A stretch of DNA of 64,000 bases from a virus (lineage: Duplodnaviria; Caudoviricetes): the IMG/VR virus record IMGVR_UViG_3300015050_001283, positions 7,966 through 71,965 of that record; one strand, 5' to 3'. The position numbers and the translations under genes were made by a program. Shown here in pieces: positions 1,172 through 27,373 of this stretch. Every line of letters starts with the position of its first letter. Within the stretch, counting starts at the first letter, position 1. The notes below the pieces were generated by a model that did not search any database, was not told the DNA's origin, and worked only from the letters and a program-made list of their open reading frames with translations.

Positions 1172-1323
1172 GCCGTCAATCAGGCATCCGCCGGACCCCG
1201 TGTCAGTATTTTTTCCTTGCCGAAGGTAGGTCAGATCCCCATCAGTCGCCTCAGTTCTTTTTCGTTCGTCTCCGCCGCTACCGGTGACGTCAGCCAATTT
1301 CCGTTCGGGGTCAGCCCCACTTT

Positions 1324-1370
1324 GAAGCCCGGTCCCCTTGTAGCGAGGGAGCCGGGCTTCGTTCTTTTTT
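1324..1370 (+). terminator. Intrinsic terminator-like hairpin immediately upstream of tRNA-Phe
   Basis: GAAGCCCGG-TCCC...GGGA-G-CCGGGCTTC stem followed by GTTCTTTTTT. Confidence 0.6.
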
Positions 1371-1374
1371 CAAC

Positions 1375-1451
1375 GGTGAGGTAGCTCAGCTGGTAGAGCG
1401 GGGCACTGAAAATGCCTAGGTCGATGGTTCGACTCCATCCCTTCACCACCA
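1375..1451 (+). tRNA. trnF: tRNA-Phe (anticodon GAA) with encoded CCA
   Basis: Cloverleaf: acceptor GGTGAGG/CTTCACC (one extra C after the T stem), D arm GCTC-AGCTGGTA-GAGC, anticodon arm GGGCA-CTGAAAA-TGCCT, T arm GATGG-TTCGACT-CCATC, then ACCA. Confidence 0.92.
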
Positions 1452-1455
1452 TCTT

Positions 1456-1537
1456 GAGGAGACGGCAGTTCGATTCTGCTCAGGCCGCGGCCCAACGCGC
1501 GGCCCGTCGTTCAACGGGACAGGACACCTCTTTACAA
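1456..1537 (+). ncRNA. Circularly permuted tRNA-like module (3' half precedes 5' half; acceptor stem closed by a loop)
   Basis: GAGG-AGAC-[GGCAG TTCGATT CTGCT]-CAGGCCGCG-loop-CGCGGCCCG-TC-[GTTC AACGGGACA GGAC]-A-CCTC-TTTACAA; the acceptor and anticodon-stem strands pair across the two halves. Confidence 0.65.
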
Positions 1538-1539
1538 TT

Positions 1540-1640
1540 CACGCGCGGATCTCTTGCGGTCCGGACGAGCGTGCACCCAGACAGCGGGTTCTCCCCGGCG
1601 GCTGTTATCGCGCAAGCGAGTGCCGGTGGCCAATTTTTCA
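1540..1640 (+). ncRNA. Structured 3' extension of the tRNA-like module
   Basis: Nested stems CACGC/GCGTG with CGGATC/GGTCCG; ACAGC/GCTGT with GGG-TTCT-CCC; TCGC-GCAA-GCGA GNRA hairpin; ends at a T-run. Confidence 0.4.
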
Positions 1641-1705
1641 CTGTGTCCAATTCATCCCTCATCAACCTCCCTCCCGACCTCCACCTTCAAGCCCGGCTTG
1701 AGGCA

Positions 1706-1912
1706 ATGTCGAAGCTCGCCCGGGAGGAAGCCGCCACCCACCAGAAATCGGCCGATGACACCCCCAGGCACGTCGCCACGCGCTGCACTTTCCAGATCCT
1801 CGCCAACAACGCCAAGCTGGACGAGCACGAGCTCGAACTCCTGGCCCACGCTGTCGGCGCCGGCTACACCATCTCGGTCTCCCCGTCCCTCTACGAGCGG
1901 ATCTTTCCGTAA
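1706..1912 (+). CDS. Small hypothetical protein (MSKLAREEAATH...)
   Basis: 3' part of track ORF 1412..1912; ATG at 1706 is preceded by GAGG; the upstream part overlaps RNA genes. Confidence 0.5.
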   Translation: MSKLAREEAATHQKSADDTPRHVATRCTFQILANNAKLDEHELELLAHAVGAGYTISVSPSLYERIFP

Positions 1913-1957
1913 CCCACTCTCGGCCAACAATAAACTTCGGTCGTCGCTCAACGACCT

Positions 1958-2461
1958 ATGACAAGCTTCGGTCAAACCCTCCTGCGTCAATACCTCGCGC
2001 GCCTCCTCCCATTCGAGGTGCACGAGAACTTCCGCCCACCCTGGCTTGACGGGCTGGAGCTGGATTTCTGGTATCCGACCCTGAACGTCGCGTTCGAATT
2101 CCAAGGGGGGCAGCACTACGTCCCCCGCGATGGTGATCGGGCCGGCCTCCACACCCAGCGGGCGAACGACCGGCGCAAGCGCCAGATACTGGAATCCCGC
2201 GGCGTCCTCCTTATTCGAATCGACGCCATCCACCTGTGGGCCAGCGCCCTCCGCGGCCGGATCAAGGCAGTGGCCATACACCACCTTCGAACAGTGCCCG
2301 TCGCCGCCATTCGAAACTCCGAGTTCCGCCCCCTCGATCGCCAAGCCCGTGAATACCGCCTGGCGCTCCGCACCCGCTTCAACTGCCCGACCGCGCACCG
2401 CCGCGGTGGCCAACCCCGTCGGGACGCCACCCGGGCCAGATTCCCCCTTTCCAAAACGTAA
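1958..2461 (+). CDS. PD-(D/E)XK endonuclease, DUF559/Vsr-like, with Arg-rich C-terminus
   Basis: LELDFWYPTLNVAFEFQGGQHY...NDRRKRQILESRGVLLIRI motif. Confidence 0.78.
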   Translation: MTSFGQTLLRQYLARLLPFEVHENFRPPWLDGLELDFWYPTLNVAFEFQGGQHYVPRDGDRAGLHTQRANDRRKRQILESRGVLLIRIDAIHLWASALRGRIKAVAIHHLRTVPVAAIRNSEFRPLDRQAREYRLALRTRFNCPTAHRRGGQPRRDATRARFPLSKT

Positions 2462-4148: not shown

Positions 4149-4916
4149 ATGACACCACGTCTAAAAGTTTTAGTTGCCTGCGAGTTCTCCGGGATTGTCC
4201 GGGAGGCTTTCAACCGGCTCGGCCACGACGCCACGTCGTGCGACCTGCTGCCGACGGAAATCCCCGGCGACCATATGCAGCACGACGCGCTGGACGTGCT
4301 GGAGTCCGAGGACTGGGATTTATTGATTGCCCACCCGCCTTGCACCTACCTCACAAATTCCGGCGTGCGCTGGCTGTATGGCAAGAAGGGCGGGAGCAAG
4401 GTGATTGATCCGGCGCGCTGGCAGCTGATGCTGGACGGGTGCGCGTTCTTCGCCCGGTTCTACAATTCCGGCGTGCCGCGGGTGGCGGTTGAAAATCCCG
4501 TGATGCACGGGCACGCGGTGGCGGAGCTCAAGCGGCTGGGGGTGCCGGCCTTCAGTCAGTCGGTCCAGCCTTACCAGTTCGGCCACTTGGAGACAAAGCG
4601 CACCTGTCTGTGGCTGCGCGGTCTGCCGGGTCTGGTCGAAACCGAGAACGTCGAAAAGGCCATGCGGAAGCTTCCGAAGAGCCAAACCAATCTTGTGCAC
4701 CTCGCGAGCCCCGGCCCTGACCGCTGGCTGATGCGCTCCCGCACGTATCCCGGCATTGCCGAGGCGATGGCCCATCAATGGGGCGGGCACGTCACGCACA
4801 AAACTTTCCCGGTGCTGAAGCCTGACGCACTAAGTCCGGACCTGTCCGGTACAACGCCCGCGCCTCTCGCACTGGGAACCCCTGTCAGTTCAACCCAAAC
4901 CCATAAAAACAAATGA
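4149..4916 (+). CDS. DNA cytosine-C5 methyltransferase-like protein (phage family)
   Basis: VLVACEFSG (motif I-like), DLLIAHPPC (catalytic PC), AVENP (motif VI-like), QPYQFGH...KRTCLW. Confidence 0.82.
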   Translation: MTPRLKVLVACEFSGIVREAFNRLGHDATSCDLLPTEIPGDHMQHDALDVLESEDWDLLIAHPPCTYLTNSGVRWLYGKKGGSKVIDPARWQLMLDGCAFFARFYNSGVPRVAVENPVMHGHAVAELKRLGVPAFSQSVQPYQFGHLETKRTCLWLRGLPGLVETENVEKAMRKLPKSQTNLVHLASPGPDRWLMRSRTYPGIAEAMAHQWGGHVTHKTFPVLKPDALSPDLSGTTPAPLALGTPVSSTQTHKNK

Positions 4917-5239
4917 ATACGAAATGGACGAAAGCCGAAAACGTGGCGCTAGTCGCTGCATACCTCGGAATGATGGCCAAGCACAACGCCGGCCAGAAAT
5001 TCAACAAGGCGCAAATCCGCCGGGATCTGATCGGGACCGATTCCGCAAAGGGTCCGCTTTTCTGCCGTTCTAACGGCTCAATCGAGTTTAAGCTGATGAA
5101 CGTCAGCGGATGCCTCAAGGCATTGGGCCGGCATACGCTGCCCGGCTATCAGGCTGCCATGAACTATCAAAGCGACCTGATGGCGACGGTCTGCGAAGCG
5201 CTGGACATCAAAAAGGAGAACGGAAGCGCCGCCGCCTGA
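4913..5239 (+). CDS. Stand-alone helical domain resembling the N-terminus of HNH/DUF3883 restriction endonucleases
   Basis: W...E....V..Y..M....GQKFNKA...R....RSNGSIEFKLMNVS..L..LG....PGY....NYQ pattern; no nuclease motif. Confidence 0.6.
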   Translation: MNTKWTKAENVALVAAYLGMMAKHNAGQKFNKAQIRRDLIGTDSAKGPLFCRSNGSIEFKLMNVSGCLKALGRHTLPGYQAAMNYQSDLMATVCEALDIKKENGSAAA

Positions 5240-14376: not shown

Positions 14377-14684
14377 TGCCTGACGAGCAGCCACAGTCCC
14401 AGATCGACCACGCCGCAGCGCACGCCATTGCTCGGCGCGAGATGCTGCTGCGGAGCGAGCGTAGGCAGCTCCAAGCTATTGCCGACTATCACGTCAACGT
14501 CGGGCCGTATGCACTTCAGCTCCAGTTCATCCTGCGGGAAACCGAGCGGCACCCCGAACTCCTGACCGATAATGCGCGCAAGGTCATCGCGTTCCTCCGT
14601 GAGCGCATCACTGACCACCATGTGTGCTGCTTCGGCATGGACCCATCGTGGCCGACGAGCCCCAAAGCCGACAAGGATCTCTGA
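14376..14684 (+). CDS. Hypothetical protein
   Basis: TGATG overlaps at both ends. Confidence 0.6.
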   Translation: MPDEQPQSQIDHAAAHAIARREMLLRSERRQLQAIADYHVNVGPYALQLQFILRETERHPELLTDNARKVIAFLRERITDHHVCCFGMDPSWPTSPKADKDL

Positions 14685-15751
14685 TGGTCGCGATGTCTCC
14701 AACAATCAAAAAGAACCAGCGCACCGGCCACTACGACGTGCTCGTGCCCGTGCCTGGCGGCGTCAAGCGCGGTAAGCATAAGTGGATCTCGACCGGCGAG
14801 ACCTCGCGCCATCGCGCCGAGACCGTCGTGTCCGAGGCCGGCGTCGACCGGCTGGTGCTGCTGGCCAACGCCGGCGCCCTGACTGCCGACGCCATCAGCG
14901 TAGTCACCACCGGTCGGCGCTTCACCGCGGCCGACATCATCGAGGCATGGGAAAAGGACTCGGTGATGGACGTGTCGGCCGGCACCGTGACCACCTACAA
15001 GACCCTGCTCGTGGCATTCTTCGAGGGCGAAGGCGCCATGCGGAAGCCGCTGCCGGCACTGAAGCGGCACCATCTCGACGCCTACATCAACGACCCAGCG
15101 TGCAAGGCCAGCACCCGGCACACCCGGCTGGCCGCGCTTCGCTCCCTGTGGCAATTCGCGCAGGCCAACTCCTACATCTCCGGCAATCTGGCCCAGACAA
15201 TCCGCGTTCGTCACAACAACATGACGCACGTGCAGCAGGAGAAGGAGGCGGCGATCCCTGTTACCCCCGACGAATACCAGACGCTGCTCACCAGCACCAA
15301 GCTCACGAAGTTCTGGCGCCGCGCCGTCATCCTCGGCTACTGGCTGGGCATCCGCATCGGCGACGTGGCCAGGATGCAGGTCGAATCCATAGGCCCCGAT
15401 TGGGTCATCATCTGGACCAACAAGCGCGGCAAGAGGGTAAGACTTCCATTGTCCGACCCCCTCATTGGACACCCGGATCTCTGTCAGGTGCTGGCGGAAC
15501 TCCGCGCCGAGACGCCAGCCGGCTACTGCTTCCCTGAGCAGAACGAAATGATCTGCGGGCCGAAGCGCCACCACCTTTCGATGCAGGCAATCCGCCTGCT
15601 TGAACAGCACGGCATCGAGTTCAAGTCCTTCCACTCGCTCCGCAGTTCAGCCATCAATCGCTGGGATGCTGCCGGCAAGACGCTGCTGGAGATCGGCACG
15701 CTGGTCGGACACTCCGACGAGGAGACAACCAAGGGATACATCCATGACTGA
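14684..15751 (+). CDS. int: Tyrosine recombinase/integrase
   Basis: Catalytic set: GIRIGD (R), KRGK (K), FHSLR (HxxR), VGHS (H), KGY (Y); SAM-like core-binding domain. Confidence 0.9.
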   Translation: MVAMSPTIKKNQRTGHYDVLVPVPGGVKRGKHKWISTGETSRHRAETVVSEAGVDRLVLLANAGALTADAISVVTTGRRFTAADIIEAWEKDSVMDVSAGTVTTYKTLLVAFFEGEGAMRKPLPALKRHHLDAYINDPACKASTRHTRLAALRSLWQFAQANSYISGNLAQTIRVRHNNMTHVQQEKEAAIPVTPDEYQTLLTSTKLTKFWRRAVILGYWLGIRIGDVARMQVESIGPDWVIIWTNKRGKRVRLPLSDPLIGHPDLCQVLAELRAETPAGYCFPEQNEMICGPKRHHLSMQAIRLLEQHGIEFKSFHSLRSSAINRWDAAGKTLLEIGTLVGHSDEETTKGYIHD

Positions 15752-16211
15752 AGTTATCGCACAGCCTATCACGGTGAAGATCGAAAACCGTTTGATTCAT
15801 CGAATCGGAATCAGGGAGTGGGGTATGCCATCGCTTTGTGTCCCCGGTAAAATCTGGCGGAGCGAAAAGAACGGGACGATCTCGTGCATGGTGCCCCACC
15901 AAGACCCCAGTAAGGTGGCTATTGAGACGCACCCTCTGGTCATCACGACAGATGGCTTTGCATCGTGGATACCGGACCACTGGCGCGCGGCCCTTTGGGA
16001 ATACTGCCAGGCATGGCCGTCGAGCGGAATGGAGTATGGTCCATTCTTGGCGTTGACCGAGGAACAGCGGTGCGACTTTCTCCGTGCTCGGGCGAAGCAA
16101 CTGGTGGCGTCGGATAACATCGGATGTCGCCACATCGCCCACGACATCGGGATGTTCGCGGCCCTCGATTATCAGATCATCGAGCCACGTCAGGAGGCGA
16201 TACCCAAATGA
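15744..16211 (+). CDS. Hypothetical protein
   Basis: ATG at 15744 overlapping the recombinase stop. Confidence 0.55.
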   Translation: MTEVIAQPITVKIENRLIHRIGIREWGMPSLCVPGKIWRSEKNGTISCMVPHQDPSKVAIETHPLVITTDGFASWIPDHWRAALWEYCQAWPSSGMEYGPFLALTEEQRCDFLRARAKQLVASDNIGCRHIAHDIGMFAALDYQIIEPRQEAIPK

Positions 16212-18423: not shown

Positions 18424-19110
18424 ATGGCCAACATTAAGTGGAAGGAGATACCAGGATACGAAGGACTGTATGAGGTGTCGAGCGCGGGAGCGGTTCGCAG
18501 GAACGCGCGCGCCAAGCACAGCAAACAGGGCATCAGTTCCACCCCGAGGCACGGCTCCCCCAATGCCAAGGGATACATGAGCATCGGCCTGAGCCGGGAC
18601 GGTGACGAACGAAAGCGCCTCGTTCACTGCTTAGTCTTGCTGGCGTTTGTCGGGCCAGCGCCGAAGGGAATGGAGGGCGCCCATCTCGATGGTGTTCGGT
18701 CTAACAATCGGTTGACCAACCTCATCTGGGCCACTCCGAAAGTGAATTGCTCCCACAAAAAGAAGCACGGCACTCAGCAATTCGGGGAGAAGGTCACGCG
18801 GTCCAAACTGACTGAGGCACAGGTCCGCACCTTGCCCAGCCTGCGCCGTTCCGGGATGACTTGGAAGGAGATCGCCACCCACCTTGGCGTAAAGACCACC
18901 ACGATTACGGGTATATCGACCGGCAGAAATTGGGCGCACCTCAAGCGGGTCAAGGCGCAGCTCGCCAAGATGCGTGTCGGCAAGGGCCGTCGGTTTACCG
19001 CGACGAAAACAGCATCCCGCTCCCGTTCATCCGCCGGCGCATCGCGTCCTCACTCCTCGATGTCGAAGACATCTGCCGCTCAAAGTAACGCTGCGTCTCC
19101 GTCGGCTTGA
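18424..19110 (+). CDS. NUMOD4-HNH homing endonuclease with a C-terminal HTH (mobile gene)
   Basis: WKEIPGYEGLYEVSSAG (NUMOD4); VHCLVLLAF...AHLDGVRSNNRLTNL (HNH); KLTEAQV...KEIATHLGV (HTH). Confidence 0.9.
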   Translation: MANIKWKEIPGYEGLYEVSSAGAVRRNARAKHSKQGISSTPRHGSPNAKGYMSIGLSRDGDERKRLVHCLVLLAFVGPAPKGMEGAHLDGVRSNNRLTNLIWATPKVNCSHKKKHGTQQFGEKVTRSKLTEAQVRTLPSLRRSGMTWKEIATHLGVKTTTITGISTGRNWAHLKRVKAQLAKMRVGKGRRFTATKTASRSRSSAGASRPHSSMSKTSAAQSNAASPSA

Positions 19111-22100
19111 TGAGGGACGTGAAGGAATCGTAACGCCGGATAGCCTCTTGGGTATCCGCGCGCCCGTCATCATCCATCACGGTGTAGAGCTGGGCCAGCT
19201 GTGCCGTAGTAGGCTTGAAGCGAAACACCTCTAACGGGTTTCTCGATTGCCAGCTGGCGAGCACCCGCTTGGCAGCCTCCTTCTCCCGATCGACAGGGGA
19301 GATCCGTGGGTCGTCGGCGACCTGTTCGCGCGCCGCATTCAGCGCCTTCCGATAGTTGTCGAGGAACCCGAGCCGGTCATTGGCCATGGCTGACAGGCTC
19401 ATCTCCCGGGTCCACACCGTCATCGGCGTCGGGGCATTGGCGGTGCCGCCACCGGATGCGCGCACCTCGATGCCCACCTCCCGACCGGCAGAGCGCAGCC
19501 AGTTCTGCGCGTTGATGCGCTGAACCAGCCGGCTCTCCGCGTTGTCGAGGCCGAGCAAATTGTTGGTGATGTCGATGCTGTGCAGCACGCCGTTGCCACC
19601 CATCGAGCTGAACGCCTGCCGGCCAACCGATGCCCAGGTGGCGTCGCCGCCTTGGGTGATGAGGTTGCGGAGGGACTGGCTCATCGAAAGGAACTGGCTC
19701 ATGGCGAACACCCGCTGGTCCAGCGAGAACCCGCGCTGCCCAGATGACGGGTCAATCTGCCCGACCAACTGGCCGGCGAGGTCGGCGCCCAACCCGTAGA
19801 CGTTGCCGGCGCGCGCGCTGCGTTCGAGGAGGGCCAGCGCATTGTCGGTCGGCGAGTCCTTGCCGGCGATGAACCCAAGCGCCGGCCCGACCAGCGGGAT
19901 GGCATTGAGCGCATCGATTGAGCGGAGGTTCGACTTCTTGCCCAGCAGCTTGTCGTCATACTGGTCGAGCAGCAGGGAGAAGGCGATGCCCATGGGCAGG
20001 TTCCACAGGGCCAGCGTGCCCAGCCCCTTGGCCATGGCCTTCAGGCTGCGCTGGCCGTCGGCCGTGTTCAGCCCTTGGTGCACGTTGTGCATCATCCAGA
20101 GCGGCCACCGCAGGAGCGGCATACCGATCTTCAGGAGGGGATTGGTCTGGAGAACCGAAGGGGTCGTGTTGATCGAGGCCGCGCCGTCGAGTTCGTTGGC
20201 GGTCATCTGCGCGATACGCAGCACCTGATCGCGGGTCAGCAGGCGGTCACCCTTGGCGGCAGCCGGCGCCGCCTGGCGGATGACGTCCTCCAGATTGCCG
20301 ATGCCATACTCGATGGACTTGTCCCGGAAGTAATCGAGGACGCCCTTGTCGAAGCGGCCGATCTTCAGCTGCTTGTCGGTGAACCGGAAGCTCGGGTCGT
20401 GCAGCGCATCGGGGTGGTTGCTGAAATGGGTGAGCCCGTTGCGGACGATCTTCTCATACATCTGCACGGACGCCAAGGTGTTGGCCTGCGCGGCAATCTG
20501 GCTGATGGAATTGAGGACGCCGAAACCCGGGATGAGGGCGAGCCGCGGGAACTCCTGCGTGCCATCGCCGATGCCCACCTTCACGCCCTTGCGCTGGATG
20601 GAACGTAGCGCGCGCAGTGGCTTGATGAGGAAGCGGTCGGTCTTTGAACTCTGGAATTTGCCGCGGTGCCCGATGTCCGCCAGCACCGTGCCCCACGGCA
20701 GGTTGCGGAACACCTGACCCTCGACCGAGCCCACGTCCTTGGCATACTCCGAACTCCGCATCACATGGATGTTCAGGTTTTCGAGGAAGCTGCCGAGCGT
20801 CGTCTCCAGCAGGTTGGCATACGCCCGTGCCGACGCCGAAATGGTCATCGGCCCCAGGCTCCGCATCGCGAACGGACGCTGCGACAGGGACAGCAAGTTG
20901 TAGGCGCCGACCTTCGGGTTGTCGACCAGCTGCCCGGTCATGGCGTTCATCACCTCCATGCCACCGCGCAGGTCAGCGAACGGGCCGGCGGTGTTGCCAA
21001 CCCCGAACAGCCCGCGGATCTTGGACTGCATCTCCAGCACCCCGGAGTAGCGGTCGGACGCTGCCTCCAGCTGCTTGTAATCCAGGCCACGGGCCGCTGC
21101 CTCGGCGGCGCGCGCCCCCTTGGTCGTGCCCTTGAGGCTGTCGAACTCCGCCTTGCGCGCAGCCAGCACGCCCTTCAGCTCGTTGACGGTCTGCACCATG
21201 CGGTCGCCGTTGCGGCCGAAGGCACCATGGAACGCCAGCATACCGAGCAGGCGCTGCGATGAGGTCGGGTCGAAGGACTGGAACTGCACGTGCTCCGGCG
21301 GGAGCAGGTCGTTCATGCGCGCGTCCATCAGGGTGTGAGGCTTCGGCCCCATCGGGTCGAACAGGTCGCGCACTTGCTGGGATTCGTAGGCGAGCTTCGC
21401 CTCCATGCCGAACAGCCGGTCAATCTGACCGAGGATGTTGCCGCGGAAGTCGGCCAGCGGATCGGCTGCCGTCTCCTCGTTGACTTGGAGCTGCCGCCCC
21501 TTCGCCAGATTGTCGATGAACTGGAGGACGTCCCCGCCGGCCGTCGTCCACGCCTGCTGGACTTCGAGCTGCGGGATGGGGTCGCCGGCCCAGCTGAAGA
21601 TCTCGCTGCCGGGCTTGTTGATGAACGGCACCAGCCAGCGATCGAGGATGCCCGGCGTAAAGTATTGCTTCAGCGTGGCGCTGAGCGCCTGGCTGTTCTT
21701 CGGGTCCAGATCCTCCGGGGTCAGGCCGTCGAAGGTCGTGGCGCGGACCACGCTGCGGCGTGCCGTGCCGTCCTCGCCGGTCTCTTCCTTGAGCTGGAGC
21801 TTCCATCCGGCCTGCTCCATGTCACGGACAATGGTCTGCAACACATCGGCCCGCAGGCTGCGCGGCGTGGTCAGCCAGCCTTGGGCGACCGCCTGCCGGA
21901 GCGCATTGCTGATGCGTGGGTCTTTCACGAAGACGCCGTATTGCTCGGCGATCTTCAGCATCAGCTCGCTGTTCTCTTTCGTGCGGCGCAACAGCGTGGC
22001 GAACTTCTCGTTGAAGTCCTCCGCCGGCGGCTTGGTCAGGAGCTGCCGCGCCATACGGGTCGCTTCCCGGATGGCGTGCTGCTCGTCCAACCCCGGGTTG

Positions 22101-25100
22101 ACGTTGAGGAAATACATCACCGGGTCGTAGACCTGGCCCAGCATCTGCCCGTGGTCGGTGATGCCGGTCGACTCCTCGACATCGGTCAGCGCCTTGGTCC
22201 ACCAGCCGGCCGCGGCGCTCACCTCTTCGCGGTGACTGCGGTTGATGAACTCGAACTGCTGAAGCATTTGCGCGATGCGCGCGCCGGAGCTGTGGCCCGC
22301 GGCCTTCGCCTCGGCGCCCAGCGGCTGCACCATCTTGTCGAGCATCGAGACCCAGCCGGCCGGATACTTCTTCTGCACGTCGAGCATGGCCAGCTCCATG
22401 GTCTGGCGCTTGACGGTCTCGAAATGGCGGGTGCCCTTGCGGTCGGCGTTCGCGCGCAGCCACTCCATGTTGTTGGTGAGGTCGCGCTTGATCTGGTCGC
22501 TGTCCTTGGCGGACCCGTCGGGGTTGAAGCTGAGGGTGCGACGTTCGGAGGTGAATGCCCCGCTGTCGCCGGGAACCATGGCCGTAAACTTGGCGCCTTC
22601 CACCGGATACCATTCCGAGTAGGCGCCGCCGGCGGTCTGCTGCATCTGGTTCACCTGCTCGGCCGTGATCGGGATGGCCTTCTCCAGCAGGGCGACCCGC
22701 TCCTCCGCGATCTGCACCCGGTTCTGCATGGTCTGGAGGGCGCGACGCCGCTTCAGGTAGCCGACGCGGATGCGCTCCGCCAATCCCTTGGCCGACGCGC
22801 GCTCATCCATCTGCCGAACCATGCGGCTGATCTGGTCGGCACTGGCCGAGCGGATCTCGTCGAGCTGCTTGTGAATCTCCCGGAATTTCGTGGTGTCGCG
22901 CAGCCAGCCCAGCTGGATCTGGTCGACCTGCTCGATGTTCGAGCGCGCCAGCGCCGCGATCGCCACGGCGAGCGGCCGGTTCTCGGCCATGGCCCGCAGC
23001 TGCGGGTTCATCTCCGCGTTGTCGCGGATGGCTTTCACGACCTCGGCGTTGGTCATGTCCGCCAGCGGCAGGTCGAGCTCGGCCAGTGCACGCACCGAAT
23101 CGAAGATGGGTAGCGTGCCGTCGACCGCCTGCTTCAGCACCCGCTGGTAGGCTTCGGGCATCGGGTCGGTCTCCAGCAAACCCTCCGCCTGCTGGATGGC
23201 TTCGTAAAGCCGGCCGTGGGTGTGGGCCGTGCTCAAGCCGCGGCGCATCGAGCGCACCAAATCGGTGGCCATCTTCCGCAGCTTGGCCCGCAAGGTGTCC
23301 TCGTGCAGCGAGGCGTTCCGGAGGTCCGACTCCAGCTTGTTCATCTCCTTGGCCTGATCGACCATCGCCTGCGCGGAGTCGTCGATCTGCTTCTTGGAGC
23401 GCGCGAGTTCGCGCAGCTGCCGGAGGTGCATCTTCTCCACGAGGATGCGGGCATTGAGCCCGGCCAAGTCGTTCATCGGCTTGGTCATCCGCGCGCCGCC
23501 GATGCGCGCGCTCTGGGTGCCCGGGACGCGCCGCTCCTGGTCAGCAAGCAGTAACACCGGGTCATCGCCGCGGCCGACCAGCTTCCAGAATTGTTCCCAT
23601 GGCGTCTTCGGCGCCAGCTCCGCGTGCAGCTTCCGGCCCAGAGCCAAGGTCTCGTGGACGGCTGCCGAGTCGATACGCGCGCGCGCCTCCGGGTCCGGGA
23701 TGTTCTGGTCGGACGGCGCATCGCTCTGCCGGAACTCGACGTTCCAACGCATGGCATCCGGGGAAATGGGTTCGACCCAAGGCTGCCGCATCGACTGGTC
23801 GAGCGGGTCGAAGAAGTCGGCCACGCTGCCGGGGGTGTCCTTGGCGCCGTGGAACTTGCGGACCTGTTCGGTCATCGGCACCGTGAGGAACCGGTCCATC
23901 AGGCTGGACAGCCGGTAGTCGAAGTCGCCGCCGGTCTCCCGCCGCAGCTGGTTCTCGAACCAGTCCAGGGCAAGCTGAGCGTTCGGCTCCGCGCCGAATC
24001 CGCGCTGCACGGCCATCGCGGTGCGGTAATACAAGTCCTTGATCCAGCGAACAATCGCCTGCGCCAGCGATTGGCTGTCGGCGACGCCGGCGTCCGCCAG
24101 TTTCTGGGCCATGGTCTCGGCCAGCAGGTCGGCCGCTGAGGTCGTCGGCGCCGCGGCCATGCCGTTGCGCTCGGCGGTCTGCTGGGCTTTGGCCTGAAGC
24201 TCGACCATCGAGGCGTCGACTGCCCGCAGCACCAGCCCCTTGGCGACGGGGTTCAACCGCATCGTCAGGGACTCGGCCGCTTCGTGGAGGAGGGTGACGA
24301 GGTTGCCGAGGTTAGCCTTCTGGACGTCATCGAGGCTGATCGCCACATGCCACGGCGAGTAGGCTACGCCCACAGCCTGCGCCAATTCAGCCAGGCGGGC
24401 TTCCCGCTGGGCAATGCGGGCCGTCAGCTCCGCGCGCATCGAGCCCTGCGCCTGCGGCAGCTGTGCCTTCAGCTGCTCGATCTGCTGGATGATGGGTTCC
24501 CGTGCGGCTTGGGCAAAAAATTCCTTGGCGAAAACGTCGACCTTCATGCCGAGGTTTTGCAGGTTCGCGGCCACAGCTTGGAACACGCTGGCGCGGTCGG
24601 CGGACTGGACGGTCGCCTGCTGGGAGCGGCGCAAATGGTTGGCGTCATCGAGCGGCACCTCGCCGGTCTGCCCCTGCTCCCGGCCGGCCACCAAATCCAG
24701 CTCGCCGTAGAGCGCCTTCAGTTCGGTGGTGATCTTGTTGCGCTCGGCCTGATCCTTGGCCCGCAGGTAGTCGTTGCCCAGCTGATCGATACGCCGGGTG
24801 ATGTCGGCTTCCCGGTTGCGGGCGATGGCCGGCTGCGCGGTCATGGCCGGCGGGCGGATCTGCTGGCCCTGCGTCTTCTCGGTCGAGCCCCACGCTTGGT
24901 CAAAGCCCTTGGCGTCGGCGAACGTCTGGAAGATCTTGCCCGGGTCGCCGGAGAAATGGACCACGGCGATCGGCTGGTAGCCGGCGGCGATGACATCCTG
25001 GACCGTCGCCGGGTGGTTGCCGCCTGCCTCGACGGCGCGCCGGCCCGCGCGGCTCACGCCCATCCGCTGGACAGCCGCCTCGTTGAAGGTGGTCTTGCCG

Positions 25101-27373
25101 CTGGTGGTCAGCGTCTTCTGGGGAAGGGTCAGACCGGCGACCACGACCCGGCCGTCCGGCCCCTGCATCGCCAAGGCGACGCGGGTCAGACTGCGGTTGC
25201 CGCTCTTGTCGGAGCGCGGTCCGCTCTCCAAGCTGGTGGTCAGCACGCGGTTCCACTGGTCAGGCAGCAGGCTCTGGAATTGTTCGTTGGTCCGGAAGTC
25301 GACGGACGGCGCACCCTCGATCACCGGCCCGTGCTCGAACACCATCTGCGGCGCGGGCTCCGCGGTCGGCTTCGCGATGATGGGCTCCGGCGGCACGATC
25401 GGCACAGACTCCGCGACCGGCCCGCCGGACACCTGGCCGGGCGGCATCCCGCCGTGCCGGTTCTTAATGTCCTCGCTGGCCTGCCAAATGGCCTTGTATT
25501 CGGGGGTGCCAAATTTCTCCGGCCCGAGCGCCGTCATCTGGCTCTGAAGCTCATTGTAGCGCGCGAGATCCGCGGCGACATCGGGCACCGTCGGGGGCTG
25601 CGCGGTCACTGGGGGGGTAACTGGCGCAACTGGTTCTGGTTCCAACGCTGGAGCCTGCGCGGTAAGGCGCGGATCAAGAAGGGGTGTTTCCGGTGTAAGT
25701 GATTGCGGCTCTACGCCGGAAGCCTGCGGATCAACAACACCGTCACCGACCATCGCGCGGCCAAGCAACTCAGCATCCCGCCGGGTGGCTTCGACCTCGC
25801 TGGCGGCATTTGGCACCGGGGCGCCGGCCATTGCAAACGCTTGGCGGCGGGTCTCGGCTTCGGCGCGGGCTTCCGCGGTGTCGCCCATCATCTGCCGGCC
25901 CAGCACTTCGGCCGGCACACCGGGCGCCGCGGCCTGTGCGACAGCCGCAAGCTCGTCGGGGGGCACGGCTGAGGGCGGCAACGGTGCCTGCGCCTGGAGC
26001 AGCTGGAACTCGGTTTCCTCGTCGGCGGACCGCGCGCGCGCGCCGAGCTCCGCCAGCCGCACCCATTTCTCCTCGTTGGGCATGGCGGCAACCGCCCGCA
26101 CGATGTCGGCATTGCTGCGGACCGGGCCGGCCGGCGCCGGTTCGACGATGGGAACGGTGGCCGCGGGCGGCGCGGCGACTGGCGGCGGCGCAACAGGGGG
26201 CGCTGCCGGCACCCCGGGCGCGTTGGGTTCGATAAAGATGGCAGGTGCAGCCACGGCGCCGCCGGCCGCGCCGGCAATGCCCGCCTCGCGGAAGCGCCGC
26301 AGATCGGCGTCGGTGAAGGTCAGGGGATCTTTCCCTTCCTTCAGGTTGCGGGCCACCACGTTGACGCCTTCCTGGAAATACTCGGTTGCGCCTTCGGTTG
26401 CCACGACGCCGGCCGCTTCGAGCAGCTTCTTGGCGCGGTCGGCCAAATACATCTTGCCCAGCTCTTTGGCTTGGGAGGCGGCAACCCCTGGGAATAGCCG
26501 GCCGAGCACCATGGTCGGCAATGCGCTGTCCGGGATGGCCGAAATCAACCCGAGGGCCAGCGCCGTGGGCCGGTCGCCGCCCTCGCTGTAAACGTCGCCG
26601 GCGTTCAGCAGATAACTGTTCGTGAGGTTGGCCGCGGCGAGCCCGCGCTTGGCGCCGATCGACATGGCCTGCCGGCCAACGACGTCAGCGATTTCCTTGG
26701 AGCCTGATTTCAGCGCCTGCTCCAGCCCGACCTCGGTCGCCTCTTTGAGCAGACCCTTGGTGGCAAGCTCCTCGGCGATGCCCTTACGGACCAGCTGCCG
26801 GATGGCGCTCTTCACGATGCTGCGCGCGACCAATCCCTCGGCGGCGCCGGCCACAGTGCCGGGGCCAGGCGCCACGGCGGAGCCCGCCAGCGCGCCGGCT
26901 CCGGCCACCACGCCGGCTTCGGCGATCGATGGGGCAACCTGTCCCACCTTGCTCATCGCGTAGCGGAGCGCGTCGCGGCTGAGCACCTTGCTGACGCCCT
27001 TCCGGCCGGGCGCAATGTCTTCGAGGGTCGGCACCGTTGGCGCGTTCGCCGCGGCATCCTCATCGAATGAAGCCGCCTTGTTGCGGAGATAGTCGCTGCC
27101 GGTTACCAAGCTGGCGCCGCCGAGCGCCGTGCTGGCCAGCCCTTGGAGGCCGCTCTTGAACGCACGGCTGAACTCCCCGGGCAGGCTGGGAGCATCGGCG
27201 TCGCGCACCTGCGACCACAGTTCGCCGAGTTCGGGGTCGGCATCGAAGAGCTGGGGCGCCTCCTGCTGGATGATCGGCCCAAGTTCCCGGACGATGAAAT
27301 CGTCTGGCCGATCATCAGACGCGCCCTGCTGGGCCAACGCCTGCCGGTATGCGTCGATAATCTTCGAGGGCAT
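18995..27373 (-). CDS. Giant internal virion/DNA-ejection protein (2792 aa)
   Basis: Last of four Ala/Gln-rich ORFs after the nozzle and fibre genes; Cys-free; N-terminal Gly/Ala hydrophobic stretch. Confidence 0.8.
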   Translation of the reverse strand: MPSKIIDAYRQALAQQGASDDRPDDFIVRELGPIIQQEAPQLFDADPELGELWSQVRDADAPSLPGEFSRAFKSGLQGLASTALGGASLVTGSDYLRNKAASFDEDAAANAPTVPTLEDIAPGRKGVSKVLSRDALRYAMSKVGQVAPSIAEAGVVAGAGALAGSAVAPGPGTVAGAAEGLVARSIVKSAIRQLVRKGIAEELATKGLLKEATEVGLEQALKSGSKEIADVVGRQAMSIGAKRGLAAANLTNSYLLNAGDVYSEGGDRPTALALGLISAIPDSALPTMVLGRLFPGVAASQAKELGKMYLADRAKKLLEAAGVVATEGATEYFQEGVNVVARNLKEGKDPLTFTDADLRRFREAGIAGAAGGAVAAPAIFIEPNAPGVPAAPPVAPPPVAAPPAATVPIVEPAPAGPVRSNADIVRAVAAMPNEEKWVRLAELGARARSADEETEFQLLQAQAPLPPSAVPPDELAAVAQAAAPGVPAEVLGRQMMGDTAEARAEAETRRQAFAMAGAPVPNAASEVEATRRDAELLGRAMVGDGVVDPQASGVEPQSLTPETPLLDPRLTAQAPALEPEPVAPVTPPVTAQPPTVPDVAADLARYNELQSQMTALGPEKFGTPEYKAIWQASEDIKNRHGGMPPGQVSGGPVAESVPIVPPEPIIAKPTAEPAPQMVFEHGPVIEGAPSVDFRTNEQFQSLLPDQWNRVLTTSLESGPRSDKSGNRSLTRVALAMQGPDGRVVVAGLTLPQKTLTTSGKTTFNEAAVQRMGVSRAGRRAVEAGGNHPATVQDVIAAGYQPIAVVHFSGDPGKIFQTFADAKGFDQAWGSTEKTQGQQIRPPAMTAQPAIARNREADITRRIDQLGNDYLRAKDQAERNKITTELKALYGELDLVAGREQGQTGEVPLDDANHLRRSQQATVQSADRASVFQAVAANLQNLGMKVDVFAKEFFAQAAREPIIQQIEQLKAQLPQAQGSMRAELTARIAQREARLAELAQAVGVAYSPWHVAISLDDVQKANLGNLVTLLHEAAESLTMRLNPVAKGLVLRAVDASMVELQAKAQQTAERNGMAAAPTTSAADLLAETMAQKLADAGVADSQSLAQAIVRWIKDLYYRTAMAVQRGFGAEPNAQLALDWFENQLRRETGGDFDYRLSSLMDRFLTVPMTEQVRKFHGAKDTPGSVADFFDPLDQSMRQPWVEPISPDAMRWNVEFRQSDAPSDQNIPDPEARARIDSAAVHETLALGRKLHAELAPKTPWEQFWKLVGRGDDPVLLLADQERRVPGTQSARIGGARMTKPMNDLAGLNARILVEKMHLRQLRELARSKKQIDDSAQAMVDQAKEMNKLESDLRNASLHEDTLRAKLRKMATDLVRSMRRGLSTAHTHGRLYEAIQQAEGLLETDPMPEAYQRVLKQAVDGTLPIFDSVRALAELDLPLADMTNAEVVKAIRDNAEMNPQLRAMAENRPLAVAIAALARSNIEQVDQIQLGWLRDTTKFREIHKQLDEIRSASADQISRMVRQMDERASAKGLAERIRVGYLKRRRALQTMQNRVQIAEERVALLEKAIPITAEQVNQMQQTAGGAYSEWYPVEGAKFTAMVPGDSGAFTSERRTLSFNPDGSAKDSDQIKRDLTNNMEWLRANADRKGTRHFETVKRQTMELAMLDVQKKYPAGWVSMLDKMVQPLGAEAKAAGHSSGARIAQMLQQFEFINRSHREEVSAAAGWWTKALTDVEESTGITDHGQMLGQVYDPVMYFLNVNPGLDEQHAIREATRMARQLLTKPPAEDFNEKFATLLRRTKENSELMLKIAEQYGVFVKDPRISNALRQAVAQGWLTTPRSLRADVLQTIVRDMEQAGWKLQLKEETGEDGTARRSVVRATTFDGLTPEDLDPKNSQALSATLKQYFTPGILDRWLVPFINKPGSEIFSWAGDPIPQLEVQQAWTTAGGDVLQFIDNLAKGRQLQVNEETAADPLADFRGNILGQIDRLFGMEAKLAYESQQVRDLFDPMGPKPHTLMDARMNDLLPPEHVQFQSFDPTSSQRLLGMLAFHGAFGRNGDRMVQTVNELKGVLAARKAEFDSLKGTTKGARAAEAAARGLDYKQLEAASDRYSGVLEMQSKIRGLFGVGNTAGPFADLRGGMEVMNAMTGQLVDNPKVGAYNLLSLSQRPFAMRSLGPMTISASARAYANLLETTLGSFLENLNIHVMRSSEYAKDVGSVEGQVFRNLPWGTVLADIGHRGKFQSSKTDRFLIKPLRALRSIQRKGVKVGIGDGTQEFPRLALIPGFGVLNSISQIAAQANTLASVQMYEKIVRNGLTHFSNHPDALHDPSFRFTDKQLKIGRFDKGVLDYFRDKSIEYGIGNLEDVIRQAAPAAAKGDRLLTRDQVLRIAQMTANELDGAASINTTPSVLQTNPLLKIGMPLLRWPLWMMHNVHQGLNTADGQRSLKAMAKGLGTLALWNLPMGIAFSLLLDQYDDKLLGKKSNLRSIDALNAIPLVGPALGFIAGKDSPTDNALALLERSARAGNVYGLGADLAGQLVGQIDPSSGQRGFSLDQRVFAMSQFLSMSQSLRNLITQGGDATWASVGRQAFSSMGGNGVLHSIDITNNLLGLDNAESRLVQRINAQNWLRSAGREVGIEVRASGGGTANAPTPMTVWTREMSLSAMANDRLGFLDNYRKALNAAREQVADDPRISPVDREKEAAKRVLASWQSRNPLEVFRFKPTTAQLAQLYTVMDDDGRADTQEAIRRYDSFTSLIKPTETQRYFERQMSSTSRSEDAMRRRMNGSGMLFSSR

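What the first reader, a model, noticed from the sequence alone, without database searches (positions are those of the whole stretch)
1452..1640. Circularly permuted tRNA mimic fused behind tRNA-Phe
Seen in sequence: 4 nt after the tRNA-Phe CCA comes a tRNA 3' half (GAGG, AGAC, T arm GGCAG-TTCGATT-CTGCT, CAGGCCG). A 5' half follows (CGGCCCG, TC, D arm GTTC-AACGGGACA-GGAC, A, CCTC, TTTACAA). The halves pair with each other: the acceptor stem extends to 9 positions with one A-C mismatch (1481-1489/1498-1506) and is closed by an 8-nt loop, and the anticodon stem is CCTC/GAGG. The cloverleaf is therefore opened at the anticodon loop. A stem-rich extension of about 100 nt with a GCAA tetraloop follows. 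Known precedent: T-arm-before-D-arm topology occurs in YrlA-type bacterial Y RNAs, in permuted tRNAs of Cyanidioschyzon and Thermofilum, and in two-piece tmRNA. None fits fully: I see no Ro60-binding stem or Ro60 gene in the window, no G3:U70 pair and no tag frame. Inference: it may be a phage tRNA decoy already 'cut' in the anticodon (against anticodon nucleases or tRNA-sensing defences), or a two-piece aminoacylatable RNA. A potential G-1:C73 pair resembles the tRNA-His identity element.
Basis: partly seen in the sequence, partly recalled or inferred. Interest (0 to 1): 0.82.

Follow-up and report, generated by a model that had tools for sequence, protein, structure and literature searches.

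The report
Permuted tRNA mimic behind phage tRNA-Phe
Four bases after its only tRNA gene, this 72-kb phage carries a complete tRNA shape written back to front (amino-acid end sealed, anticodon end open); the shape is real, but it is a singleton missing from the closest relative, so it may be a working tRNA look-alike or a recombination scar.

Summary
Window 1456-1530 (+) reads clamp strand, 4-nt variable loop, T arm, sealed 9-bp acceptor hairpin, U8-C9, D arm, A26, clamp strand. All tRNA elbow nucleotides are present. A strict descriptor finds it once in the window and never in 300 shuffles. Re-joined in silico, ARAGORN calls it a tRNA.

It is not a member of YrlA, two-piece tmRNA or permuted-tRNA genes. 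There is no Rfam hit, no Ro60 gene, no Ro60 motif, no G3:U70 and no tag.

New context: tRNA-Phe, the mimic and its tail form a ~270-nt cassette. The cassette sits between a conserved terminator and an 89-aa gene, just upstream of a homing-endonuclease-like gene. The closest relative (94% identical flanks) lacks the whole cassette. Two other relatives carry normal-order tRNA-shaped RNAs without anticodon loops after the same terminator. One of them shares the acceptor 8-mer.

Best reading (0.5): a non-decoding tRNA mimic with YrlA topology, a circular permutation of that local RNA family, released by tRNA processing and acting as a decoy or adaptor for a tRNA-binding protein. Main rival (0.33): a functionless rearrangement scar.

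No homologue was found anywhere, so covariation cannot be tested. The scan has noted permuted tRNA mimics in other phages before.

The parts
1324..1370 (+). Conserved terminator-like hairpin (GAAGCCCGG ... CCGGGCUUC) plus U-run; left border of the variable slot
   Evidence: Conserved in L045, L046, L047, L056 and L059, with compensatory changes in L046 and L056.
1375..1451 (+). Genuine tRNA-Phe(GAA) with encoded CCA; the only tRNA of the phage
   Evidence: ARAGORN; Rfam tRNA 63 bits; no other tRNA in the remaining 8 kb of the record.
1452..1455 (+). 4-nt linker UCUU between the CCA and the mimic
1456..1463 (+). Clamp strand GAGG (anticodon-stem 3' strand equivalent) plus 4-nt variable loop AGAC
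   Evidence: Pairs with CCUC 1527-1530. The AGNC variable loop is shared with L046 X (AGUC).
1464..1480 (+). T arm GGCAG-UUCGAUU-CUGCU
1481..1506 (+). Sealed acceptor hairpin: 9 pairs, one A-C mismatch (1482/1505), 8-nt loop GCCCAACG
1507..1526 (+). U8-C9, D arm GUUC-AACGGGACA-GGAC, A26
1527..1537 (+). Clamp strand CCUC followed by UUUACAA (fits an anticodon-loop pattern but is not closed)
1540..1573 (+). 34-nt irregular hairpin H1 (5 bp, 1x5 internal loop, 6 bp, hexaloop). Similar in size to the 35-36-nt arms of the relatives' tRNA-shaped RNAs. Contains GACGAGCG, one mismatch from the YrlA motif.
   Evidence: the relaxed motif is not significant, P about 0.2.
1587..1626 (-). Motif M: hairpin with CGAUAACA in the loop, followed by GAACC. 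It lies on the minus strand here and on the plus strand in L047/L048/L049. Function unknown.
   Evidence: The stem covaries: CCGGC/GCCGG, CCGGG/CCCGG, CCGGGU/ACCCGG, CUCAG/CUGAG.
1366..1372 (+). Left copy of the 7-nt direct repeat TTTTTCA flanking the cassette
1634..1640 (+). Right copy of the 7-nt direct repeat TTTTTCA
1643..1912 (+). 89-aa gene of unknown function (GTG start); right border of the slot
   Evidence: N-terminus SSLINLPPD is conserved in L045 and L046; 90% identical homologue in L045.
1958..2461 (+). 167-aa homing-endonuclease-like gene (P0001), PD-(D/E)XK-type motif ELDF...EFQGGQH
   Evidence: PHROG hits to homing, intron-encoded and HNH endonuclease families. Large family: 2148 representatives at E<=1e-10.

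Best explanation
The element is a non-decoding tRNA mimic with the topology of YrlA-type Y RNAs. It has a full tRNA elbow (T and D arms), an acceptor helix sealed by a loop, and a chain opened where the anticodon loop would be, held by a 4-bp clamp.

It is most likely a circular permutation of a local family of tRNA-shaped RNAs that lack an anticodon loop. Related phages carry these RNAs after the same terminator.

Together with tRNA-Phe it forms a ~270-nt accessory cassette. The cassette lies in the early region, near a CBASS-inhibitor homologue (Acb3) and methyltransferase genes, directly after a conserved terminator and about 300 nt upstream of a free-standing homing-endonuclease-like gene.

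Inferred mechanism (none of it shown):
- The cassette is transcribed by read-through of the terminator.
- RNase P and 3' trimming release tRNA-Phe, which leaves the mimic with a UCUU 5' end.
- With its 7(+2)-bp acceptor helix the mimic may itself be cut by RNase P in the loop, as Mycobacterium smegmatis YrlA is.
- It then acts through its tRNA shape as a decoy or adaptor for a tRNA-binding protein. Candidates are a host Ro60/Rsr-type protein or a tRNA-targeting defence enzyme.
For: - Anatomy is beyond chance, and every tertiary-contact nucleotide is intact: U8, A14, G18, G19, A21, G53, U54, U55, C56, A58, C61.
- It cannot decode. The chain is open and the clamp has only 4 pairs.
- In L046 the same slot holds a normal-order tRNA-shaped RNA (L046:287-382). 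Its anticodon arm is a closed 36-nt hairpin, and its fold z-score is -3.3.
- That L046 RNA shares with the mimic the 5' acceptor 8-mer CGGCCCGU, a 4-nt AGNC variable loop, a 9-nt D loop and the T loop UUCGA(G/U)U. The D and T stems differ by 5 double compensatory changes and no disruption.
- L047 has a similar RNA (1273-1363) after the same conserved terminator. Its arm holds two exact copies of the YrlA Ro60 motif GNCGAAN0-1G (P about 0.0015 by shuffling; motif from PMC4201824).
- Published precedent: most YrlA RNAs are described as circularly permuted tRNAs with closed acceptor stems. M. smegmatis YrlA, which has a 7-bp stem, is cut by RNase P and receives CCA in vivo.
- Context: an Acb3 homologue lies about 4 kb away, and homing-endonuclease-linked tRNA loci are known anti-defence loci in T-even phages (PMC13096335).
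Against: - The element is a singleton. The single-sequence covariance model R1 hits only itself in the window and 14 related loci.
- Pattern scans were empty in IMG/VR, in 185,579 species genomes and in JGI metagenomes. GenBank phages gave only tRNA-Phe matches.
- The closest relative, with 94% identical flanks, lacks the whole cassette. The cassette is therefore dispensable and recent, or recently lost.
- No partner protein was found. There is no TROVE gene, and no RNA-binding or repair family among 95 ORFs.
- There is no strict Ro60 motif in the element, and no long basal helix is possible because tRNA-Phe lies 4 nt upstream.
- There is an A-C mismatch in the acceptor helix.
- No transcript data exist.
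- Homology to the L046 RNA rests mainly on one 8-mer and on loop patterns.
Confidence: 0.5

Rival explanations
1. Functionless rearrangement scar. A tRNA or tRNA-like gene in this slot was tandemly duplicated, for example through break repair driven by the neighbouring homing endonuclease. Collapse or recapture of the middle piece then left '3' half - spacer - 5' half'. The halves pair simply because they come from the same gene.
For: - The slot is hypervariable next to a homing-endonuclease-like gene: empty in L045, a different cargo in L046.
- The cassette is bounded by a 7-nt direct repeat TTTTTCA, typical of microhomology-mediated events.
- SegB-dependent tandem amplification of a tRNA segment, with microhomology at the unit borders, is documented (PMC13096335).
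- The element is a singleton with no conservation.
- It has an A-C mismatch and only a 4-bp clamp.
- UUUACAA fits an anticodon-loop pattern, as expected if a real loop was cut at its 3' edge.
Against: - Both break points fall exactly at the base of the anticodon stem.
- All elbow nucleotides and all D, T and clamp pairs are intact.
- The spacer has no CCA, although tRNA-Phe here and tRNA-Cys and the tRNA-shaped RNAs in the relatives all encode CCA. The spacer instead adds two pairs that seal the helix.
- No source tRNA with the same D arm or the same T-arm-plus-acceptor sequence exists in 185,579 species genomes.
- A scar and a function are not exclusive: YrlA itself is thought to descend from tRNA.
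Confidence: 0.33
2. Two-piece chargeable RNA. RNase P cuts in the sealing loop, the 3' end is trimmed and CCA is added. The two pieces stay paired and are aminoacylated, so the RNA acts like a two-piece tmRNA or a donor for a tRNA-dependent transferase.
For: - A 7-bp acceptor helix stacked on a 5-bp T stem is the RNase P determinant.
- M. smegmatis YrlA undergoes exactly this cleavage and CCA addition.
- The gene order matches permuted ssrA (established knowledge: Keiler et al. 2000, from memory).
Against: - No tmRNA is called by ARAGORN or Rfam.
- The pair is G3-C70, not G3:U70, and position 73 is C, not A.
- There is no tag frame. Two frames stay open through the region into the next gene.
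- The D arm is a full tRNA D arm, unlike tmRNA.
- Nothing points to any synthetase identity set.
Confidence: 0.05
3. Integration-site relic. The 3' half is an attP/attR-type tRNA fragment left by a tyrosine integrase, and the following '5' half' is a hairpin that merely looks like one.
For: - The phage has an integrase-family gene.
- tRNA 3' halves that start at the anticodon stem are typical att cores (established knowledge: Williams 2002, from memory).
Against: - The integrase gene lies 13 kb away (window 14684-15751).
- The 5' half has a complete D arm with A14, G18, G19 and A21 plus the matching clamp strand, which is far beyond chance.
- The flanks share no core sequence consistent with attL/attR (my inspection).
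Confidence: 0.04
4. True permuted tRNA-Val gene. The ends are joined at RNA level by an RNA ligase via a circular intermediate, and the sealing loop is then removed, giving a working tRNA-Val(UAC) as in Cyanidioschyzon.
For: The re-joined sequence is called tRNA-Val(UAC) by ARAGORN, and the loop has U33 and A37.
Against: - The leader is tRNA-Phe's CCA plus UCUU, and the leader and trailer are not complementary beyond the 4-bp clamp, so no bulge-helix-bulge can form. No splicing endonuclease is expected in bacteria.
- No RNA ligase or RtcB was found among the phage ORFs.
- The anticodon stem has 4 pairs, position 73 is C rather than the A73 of bacterial tRNA-Val (from memory), and the variable loop has 4 nt.
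Confidence: 0.03

Closest known systems
YrlA-type bacterial and mycobacteriophage Y RNAs (Rfam RF02553; Chen et al. 2014, PMC4201824; Wang et al. 2018, doi 10.1101/312249)
   Same: - Identical order: 4-bp inner stem strand, short variable loop, T arm, loop-closed acceptor-like helix, 2 nt, D arm, stem strand.
- tRNA elbow nucleotides are kept.
- Like M. smegmatis YrlA, it has a 7-bp acceptor helix that could be an RNase P substrate.
- Some Y RNAs are encoded next to tRNAs.
   Different: - No basal Ro60-binding helix; tRNA-Phe lies 4 nt upstream.
- No GNCGAAN0-1G motif.
- No Ro60/TROVE gene in the genome.
- No Rfam match even at E<=10.
- Its D and T stem sequences are not the conserved YrlA ones.
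Normal-order tRNA-shaped RNAs without an anticodon loop in related phages (L046:287-382 and L047:1273-1363; I found no description of them)
   Same: - Same genomic position, after the conserved terminator and upstream of the homing-endonuclease-like gene.
- Same acceptor 8-mer (L046).
- Same variable-loop and T-loop pattern.
- An irregular hairpin of about 35 nt accompanies the tRNA body.
   Different: Those RNAs have an open acceptor end with an encoded CCA and a closed arm. This one is the reverse. The L047 RNA carries two Ro60-type motifs; this one carries none.
Permuted tRNA genes of Cyanidioschyzon merolae and two-piece (permuted) tmRNA of alphaproteobacteria
   Same: The 3' half is encoded upstream of the 5' half, with a short linker between the acceptor strands.
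   Different: There are no signals for circularisation, no complete anticodon arm, no alanine identity and no tag reading frame.
Homing-endonuclease-linked tRNA loci of T-even phages (SegB; PMC2330249, PMC13096335)
   Same: tRNA genes sit beside a free-standing homing-endonuclease-like gene, the content varies between relatives, and the borders show microhomology.
   Different: The nuclease family differs (PD-(D/E)XK-like here, GIY-YIG for SegB). No amplification is seen here, and no defence target is known.

Membership tests
YrlA (RF02553) | T arm, then loop-closed acceptor-like helix, then D arm, with tRNA elbow nucleotides | tested here: met
YrlA (RF02553) | Basal helix formed by the 5' and 3' ends, with GNCGAAN0-1G near the 5' end (Ro60 site) | tested here: not met
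   Only a 4-bp clamp. The 5' flank is tRNA-Phe plus 4 nt. No strict motif in 1452-1642; one relaxed match, P about 0.2.
YrlA (RF02553) | Encoded within about 4 kb of, and on the same strand as, a Ro60/Rsr (TROVE) gene | tested here: not met
   No TROVE match in the 71,965-nt, 98%-complete record in a six-frame search. None among 95 ORFs.
YrlA (RF02553) | Scores with the Rfam covariance model | tested here: not met
   No hit on 1452-1640 at E<=10. The only YrlA hit (17.6 bits, gathering 69) lies on the tRNA-Phe D arm.
YrlA (RF02553) | Bound by Ro60; modified by TruB and DusA | not testable with these tools
   Needs immunoprecipitation and modification mapping.
Two-piece tmRNA (alpha_tmRNA and related) | G3:U70, A73-CCA acceptor end, and a tag reading frame with a resume codon | tested here: not met
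   G3-C70, C73, no CCA after position 73. No tmRNA by ARAGORN or Rfam at E<=10. No short tag frame.
Permuted tRNA genes (Cyanidioschyzon type) | 3' half upstream of the 5' half, joined at the acceptor ends by a linker | tested here: met
Permuted tRNA genes (Cyanidioschyzon type) | Leader and trailer form a bulge-helix-bulge for circularisation; the mature product has a full anticodon arm | tested here: not met
   The leader is CCA-UCUU of tRNA-Phe and is not complementary to the trailer. The stem has only 4 pairs.
Handle RNAs of this scan's earlier notes (closing helix + NN + ACAGCAA beside a Ro60-like gene) | 7-bp closing helix followed by (UU)ACAGCAA | tested here: not met
   After CCUC comes UUUACAAUUC, which shares only UUACA. 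No 7-bp canonical helix. The family definition comes from unchecked notes.
tRNA (RF00005) | Contiguous cloverleaf with an anticodon loop | tested here: not met
   Not called in native order by ARAGORN or Rfam. Called only after in-silico re-joining.

The most novel reading that the evidence does not exclude
Phages of this group keep a swappable slot next to a homing endonuclease. The slot holds Ro60-independent tRNA mimics, and the normal-order and circularly permuted forms interconvert through tandem duplication. The permuted form would be cut by RNase P into a two-piece tRNA look-alike that soaks up or misleads a host tRNA-targeting defence nuclease or tRNA-sensing immune protein. It would thus be a new class of RNA anti-defence factor delivered together with a spare tRNA.
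Probability: 0.12. Interest if true: 0.8.

Novelty: new variant of a known kind. Interest (0 to 1): 0.45.

Why it matters
If the RNA is made and stable, it would be a YrlA-shaped tRNA mimic with no Ro60 module and no Ro60 gene, co-transcribed with a real tRNA in a phage's anti-defence region. That would separate the 'tRNA mimic' part of Y RNAs from Ro60. It would also point to tRNA-binding host factors or defence enzymes as the targets.

The pair formed by this element and the normal-order RNA of L046, in the same slot and with the same acceptor stem, would also be a rare natural snapshot of how a permuted tRNA mimic arises from a tRNA-shaped gene. The adjacent homing-endonuclease-like gene offers a plausible motor for that change.

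If it is only a scar, it is still a useful caution: break repair at homing-endonuclease-linked tRNA loci can produce perfect-looking permuted tRNAs.

Tried and rejected
- **Homologues by exact or degenerate DNA patterns.** All came back empty or with chance hits only: viral contigs, genome contigs (84, 85), metagenome contigs (86; 87 gave one unrelated hit, L057).
- **BLAST against GenBank phages.** It found only tRNA-Phe or generic T-arm matches.
- **Relatives through the terminase or the upstream ORF.** No relatives in IMG/VR or GenBank.
- **Covariance model R1.** It finds nothing but itself. The relatives' full records are not held, so I could not scan them.
- **Partner protein.** No TROVE gene. 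Pfam on 95 ORFs and on 20 neighbours gave nothing related to RNA. The 570-aa DUF3560 protein is unrelated to the 567-aa L047 protein and to any solved structure.
- **Ro60 motif in the element.** Not significant.
- **'ACAGCAA handle' from earlier notes.** Not present.
- **attL/attR reading of the two junctions.** No shared core.
- **Group I intron or riboswitch identity for the relatives' long leader RNA.** No Rfam hit.
- **Promoter scan of 900-2300.** No sigma-70-like site.
- **GCCAATTT as a repeated signal.** Not above chance.

Full report
**1. What the DNA is**

The window is bases 7966-71965 of a 71,965-nt IMG/VR virus record. CheckV rates it 98% complete, and it has 62% G+C. Its terminase has only distant matches to known phages. 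It encodes several DNA methyltransferases, an integrase-family protein (window 14684-15751) and a homologue of the CBASS inhibitor Acb3 (record 4574-5218, minus strand).

tRNA-Phe(GAA) at 1375-1451 is genuine (63 bits). It is the only tRNA of the phage. ARAGORN's 'tRNA-Gln' at 2034-2112 lies inside a protein gene and Rfam does not detect it.

**2. The observation**

In order they are:
- GAGG, then AGAC
- a T arm with a UUCGAUU loop
- a 9-bp acceptor helix closed by GCCCAACG
- UC
- a D arm with an AACGGGACA loop
- A, then CCUC
- UUUACAA

The nucleotides that build the tRNA elbow and core are all there: U8, A14, G18, G19, A21, G53-C61, U54, U55, C56, A58.

A strict descriptor of a permuted cloverleaf hits only 1456-1530 in the window, and gives no hit in 300 dinucleotide shuffles. 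Joining the halves in silico gives a sequence that ARAGORN calls tRNA-Val(UAC). The cloverleaf lies within 3 kcal/mol of the MFE.

**3. Known families**

- Rfam at E<=10 gives no YrlA, tmRNA or partial tRNA hit on the element.
- ARAGORN finds no tmRNA.
- The genome has no TROVE/Ro60 gene, and no RNA ligase, RtcB or other RNA-handling family among 95 ORFs.
- The YrlA Ro60 motif GNCGAAN0-1G (PMC4201824) is absent. The single near-match, GACGAGCG in hairpin 1540-1573, is not significant.
- The topology itself is published. Wang et al. describe most YrlA RNAs as circularly permuted tRNAs with closed acceptor stems. M. smegmatis YrlA, which has a 7-bp stem, is cut by RNase P and receives CCA in vivo.

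**4. Relatives, the main new result**

The gene at 1958-2461 (P0001) has homologues on metagenome contigs, and I fetched their surroundings.

*Closest relative, L045 (95% protein identity).* Window 1238-1367 aligns to L045 5556-5682, and window 1652-1998 aligns to L045 5695-6041 at 94%. L045 therefore lacks everything from tRNA-Phe to position 1642. The block is a ~270-nt cassette. It lies between a conserved terminator hairpin (1324-1370) and the GTG start (1643) of an 89-aa gene whose N-terminus is conserved. A 7-nt direct repeat, TTTTTCA, flanks the cassette.

*L046 (73%).* The same slot holds a different cargo. A 96-nt tRNA-shaped RNA (287-382) comes first. It has a closed 36-nt hairpin instead of an anticodon arm and an encoded CCA end, and its fold z-score is -3.3. 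A tRNA-Cys follows it.

That RNA shares with the permuted element:
- the 5' acceptor 8-mer CGGCCCGU
- an AGNC variable loop
- a 9-nt D loop
- the T loop UUCGA(G/U)U

Their D and T stems differ by five double compensatory changes with no broken pair.

*L047 (61%).* It has a 91-nt RNA of the same design after the same conserved terminator. Its arm contains two exact GNCGAAN0-1G motifs (P about 0.0015).

So this phage group keeps tRNA-shaped RNAs without anticodon loops after that terminator. The window's element looks like the circular permutation of one of them. Hairpin 1540-1573 may be the displaced arm.

**5. The neighbour gene**

P0001 has the motif ELDF...EFQGGQH. It matches PHROG families annotated as homing, intron-encoded and HNH endonucleases. 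It belongs to a very large family.

Free-standing homing endonucleases sit in phage tRNA clusters. They drive co-conversion and, under defence pressure, tandem amplification of tRNA segments with microhomology at the borders (PMC2330249, PMC13096335). This explains the variability of the slot. It also offers a route to a permutation (tandem duplication followed by collapse), and equally a route to a meaningless scar.

**6. No homologue of the permuted element itself**

- A single-sequence covariance model finds only the element in the window and 14 related loci.
- Pattern scans of IMG/VR, 185,579 species genomes and JGI metagenomes are empty.
- GenBank phages match only tRNA-Phe.

Conservation and covariation of the permuted form therefore cannot be assessed. 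No source tRNA was found either.

**7. Weighing**

For function:
- The elbow and all stems are intact.
- The break points fall exactly at the base of the anticodon stem.
- The linker lacks the CCA that every neighbouring tRNA or tRNA-like gene encodes, and instead adds two sealing pairs.
- Family-level compensatory change is seen against the L046 RNA.
- The cassette is placed with a real tRNA in an early region that also holds an Acb3 homologue and methyltransferase genes.

Against function:
- It is a singleton and is absent from the sister phage.
- It has no partner protein and no Ro60 motif.
- It has an A-C mismatch.
- It shows microhomology borders next to a recombination-prone nuclease gene.
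- Part of the 3' tail (1587-1626) matches a conserved hairpin motif on the opposite strand.

I put a working tRNA mimic at 0.5 and a scar at 0.33. The two-piece chargeable RNA, the att relic and the true permuted tRNA-Val share about 0.12. The remainder covers an assembly artefact, which I could not test.

**8. Novelty**

The topology is known from YrlA, and this scan has already noted permuted tRNA mimics in other phages (unchecked notes that I used only as leads).

What is different here:
- no Ro60 context at all
- fusion 4 nt behind a tRNA
- the cassette and homing-endonuclease setting
- a normal-order counterpart in the same slot of a relative

I rate it a new variant of a known kind, of moderate interest, limited by the lack of any conservation or expression evidence.

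Noticed in passing
window 2034-2112: ARAGORN's 'tRNA-Gln(CTG)' is almost certainly false. It lies inside the conserved core (ELDFWYP...EFQGGQHY) of the homing-endonuclease-like ORF 1958-2461, and Rfam does not detect it.
   Followed up: yes
window 1587-1626 (minus strand); L047:1185-1235, L048:5595-5640, L049:4600-4650 (plus strand): Motif M is a hairpin whose stem covaries: CCGGC/GCCGG, CCGGG/CCCGG, CCGGGU/ACCCGG, CUCAG/CUGAG. Its loop carries the invariant CGAUAACA, and GAACC follows the stem. It occurs once per genome. In the relatives it lies just after the terminator and ahead of the non-coding RNAs; here it is in the opposite orientation. It could be a promoter or a recombination site. 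Unexplained.
   Followed up: partly
L047:1364-1548, L048:5740-5960, L049:4700-4950, L056:125-340, L059:2720-2935: A conserved structured leader of about 200-250 nt lies directly upstream of the homing-endonuclease-like gene in five relatives. Its conserved blocks are GGUGCAAUUCCG..., GCGACAAAGA..., and GGGGUUAGGGGG or GGGGUAGGGGG near the start codon. It has no Rfam match and no match in GenBank phages. It is absent from this window.
   Followed up: partly
L046:287-382 and L047:1273-1363: These are normal-order tRNA-shaped RNAs with an encoded CCA end and a 35-36-nt closed hairpin in place of the anticodon arm. The L047 arm has two exact GNCGAAN0-1G (YrlA Ro60-type) motifs. ARAGORN misses the first and miscalls the second as tRNA-Arg.
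   Followed up: partly
window 1296-1370; L045, L046, L047, L056, L059: The small hairpin GGGG-UCAG-CCCC plus the terminator hairpin GAAGCCCGG...CCGGGCUUC is conserved across distant relatives, with compensatory changes. No plus-strand gene precedes it here. It may be the 3' end of a small RNA, or an attenuator of the rightward early operon.
   Followed up: no
record G000:C1:4574-5218 (minus strand; outside the window, L044): Strong match to the CBASS inhibitor family Acb3 (Pfam PF25187, E = 4e-43) in the leftward early gene cluster, about 4 kb from the cassette.
   Followed up: no
window 14684-15751 and the 300-nt gap 15752-16046: Integrase-family gene. The six-frame hit reports one TGA in the extended frame. 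It is followed by a non-coding gap that could hold attP. It is unrelated to the tRNA-like element, which lies 13 kb away.
   Followed up: no
window 18995-27373 (minus strand): A 2792-aa ORF stands at the head of the structural module. Its size suggests a virion-packaged giant protein, possibly an N4-type virion RNA polymerase or an ejection protein. I did not examine it.
   Followed up: no
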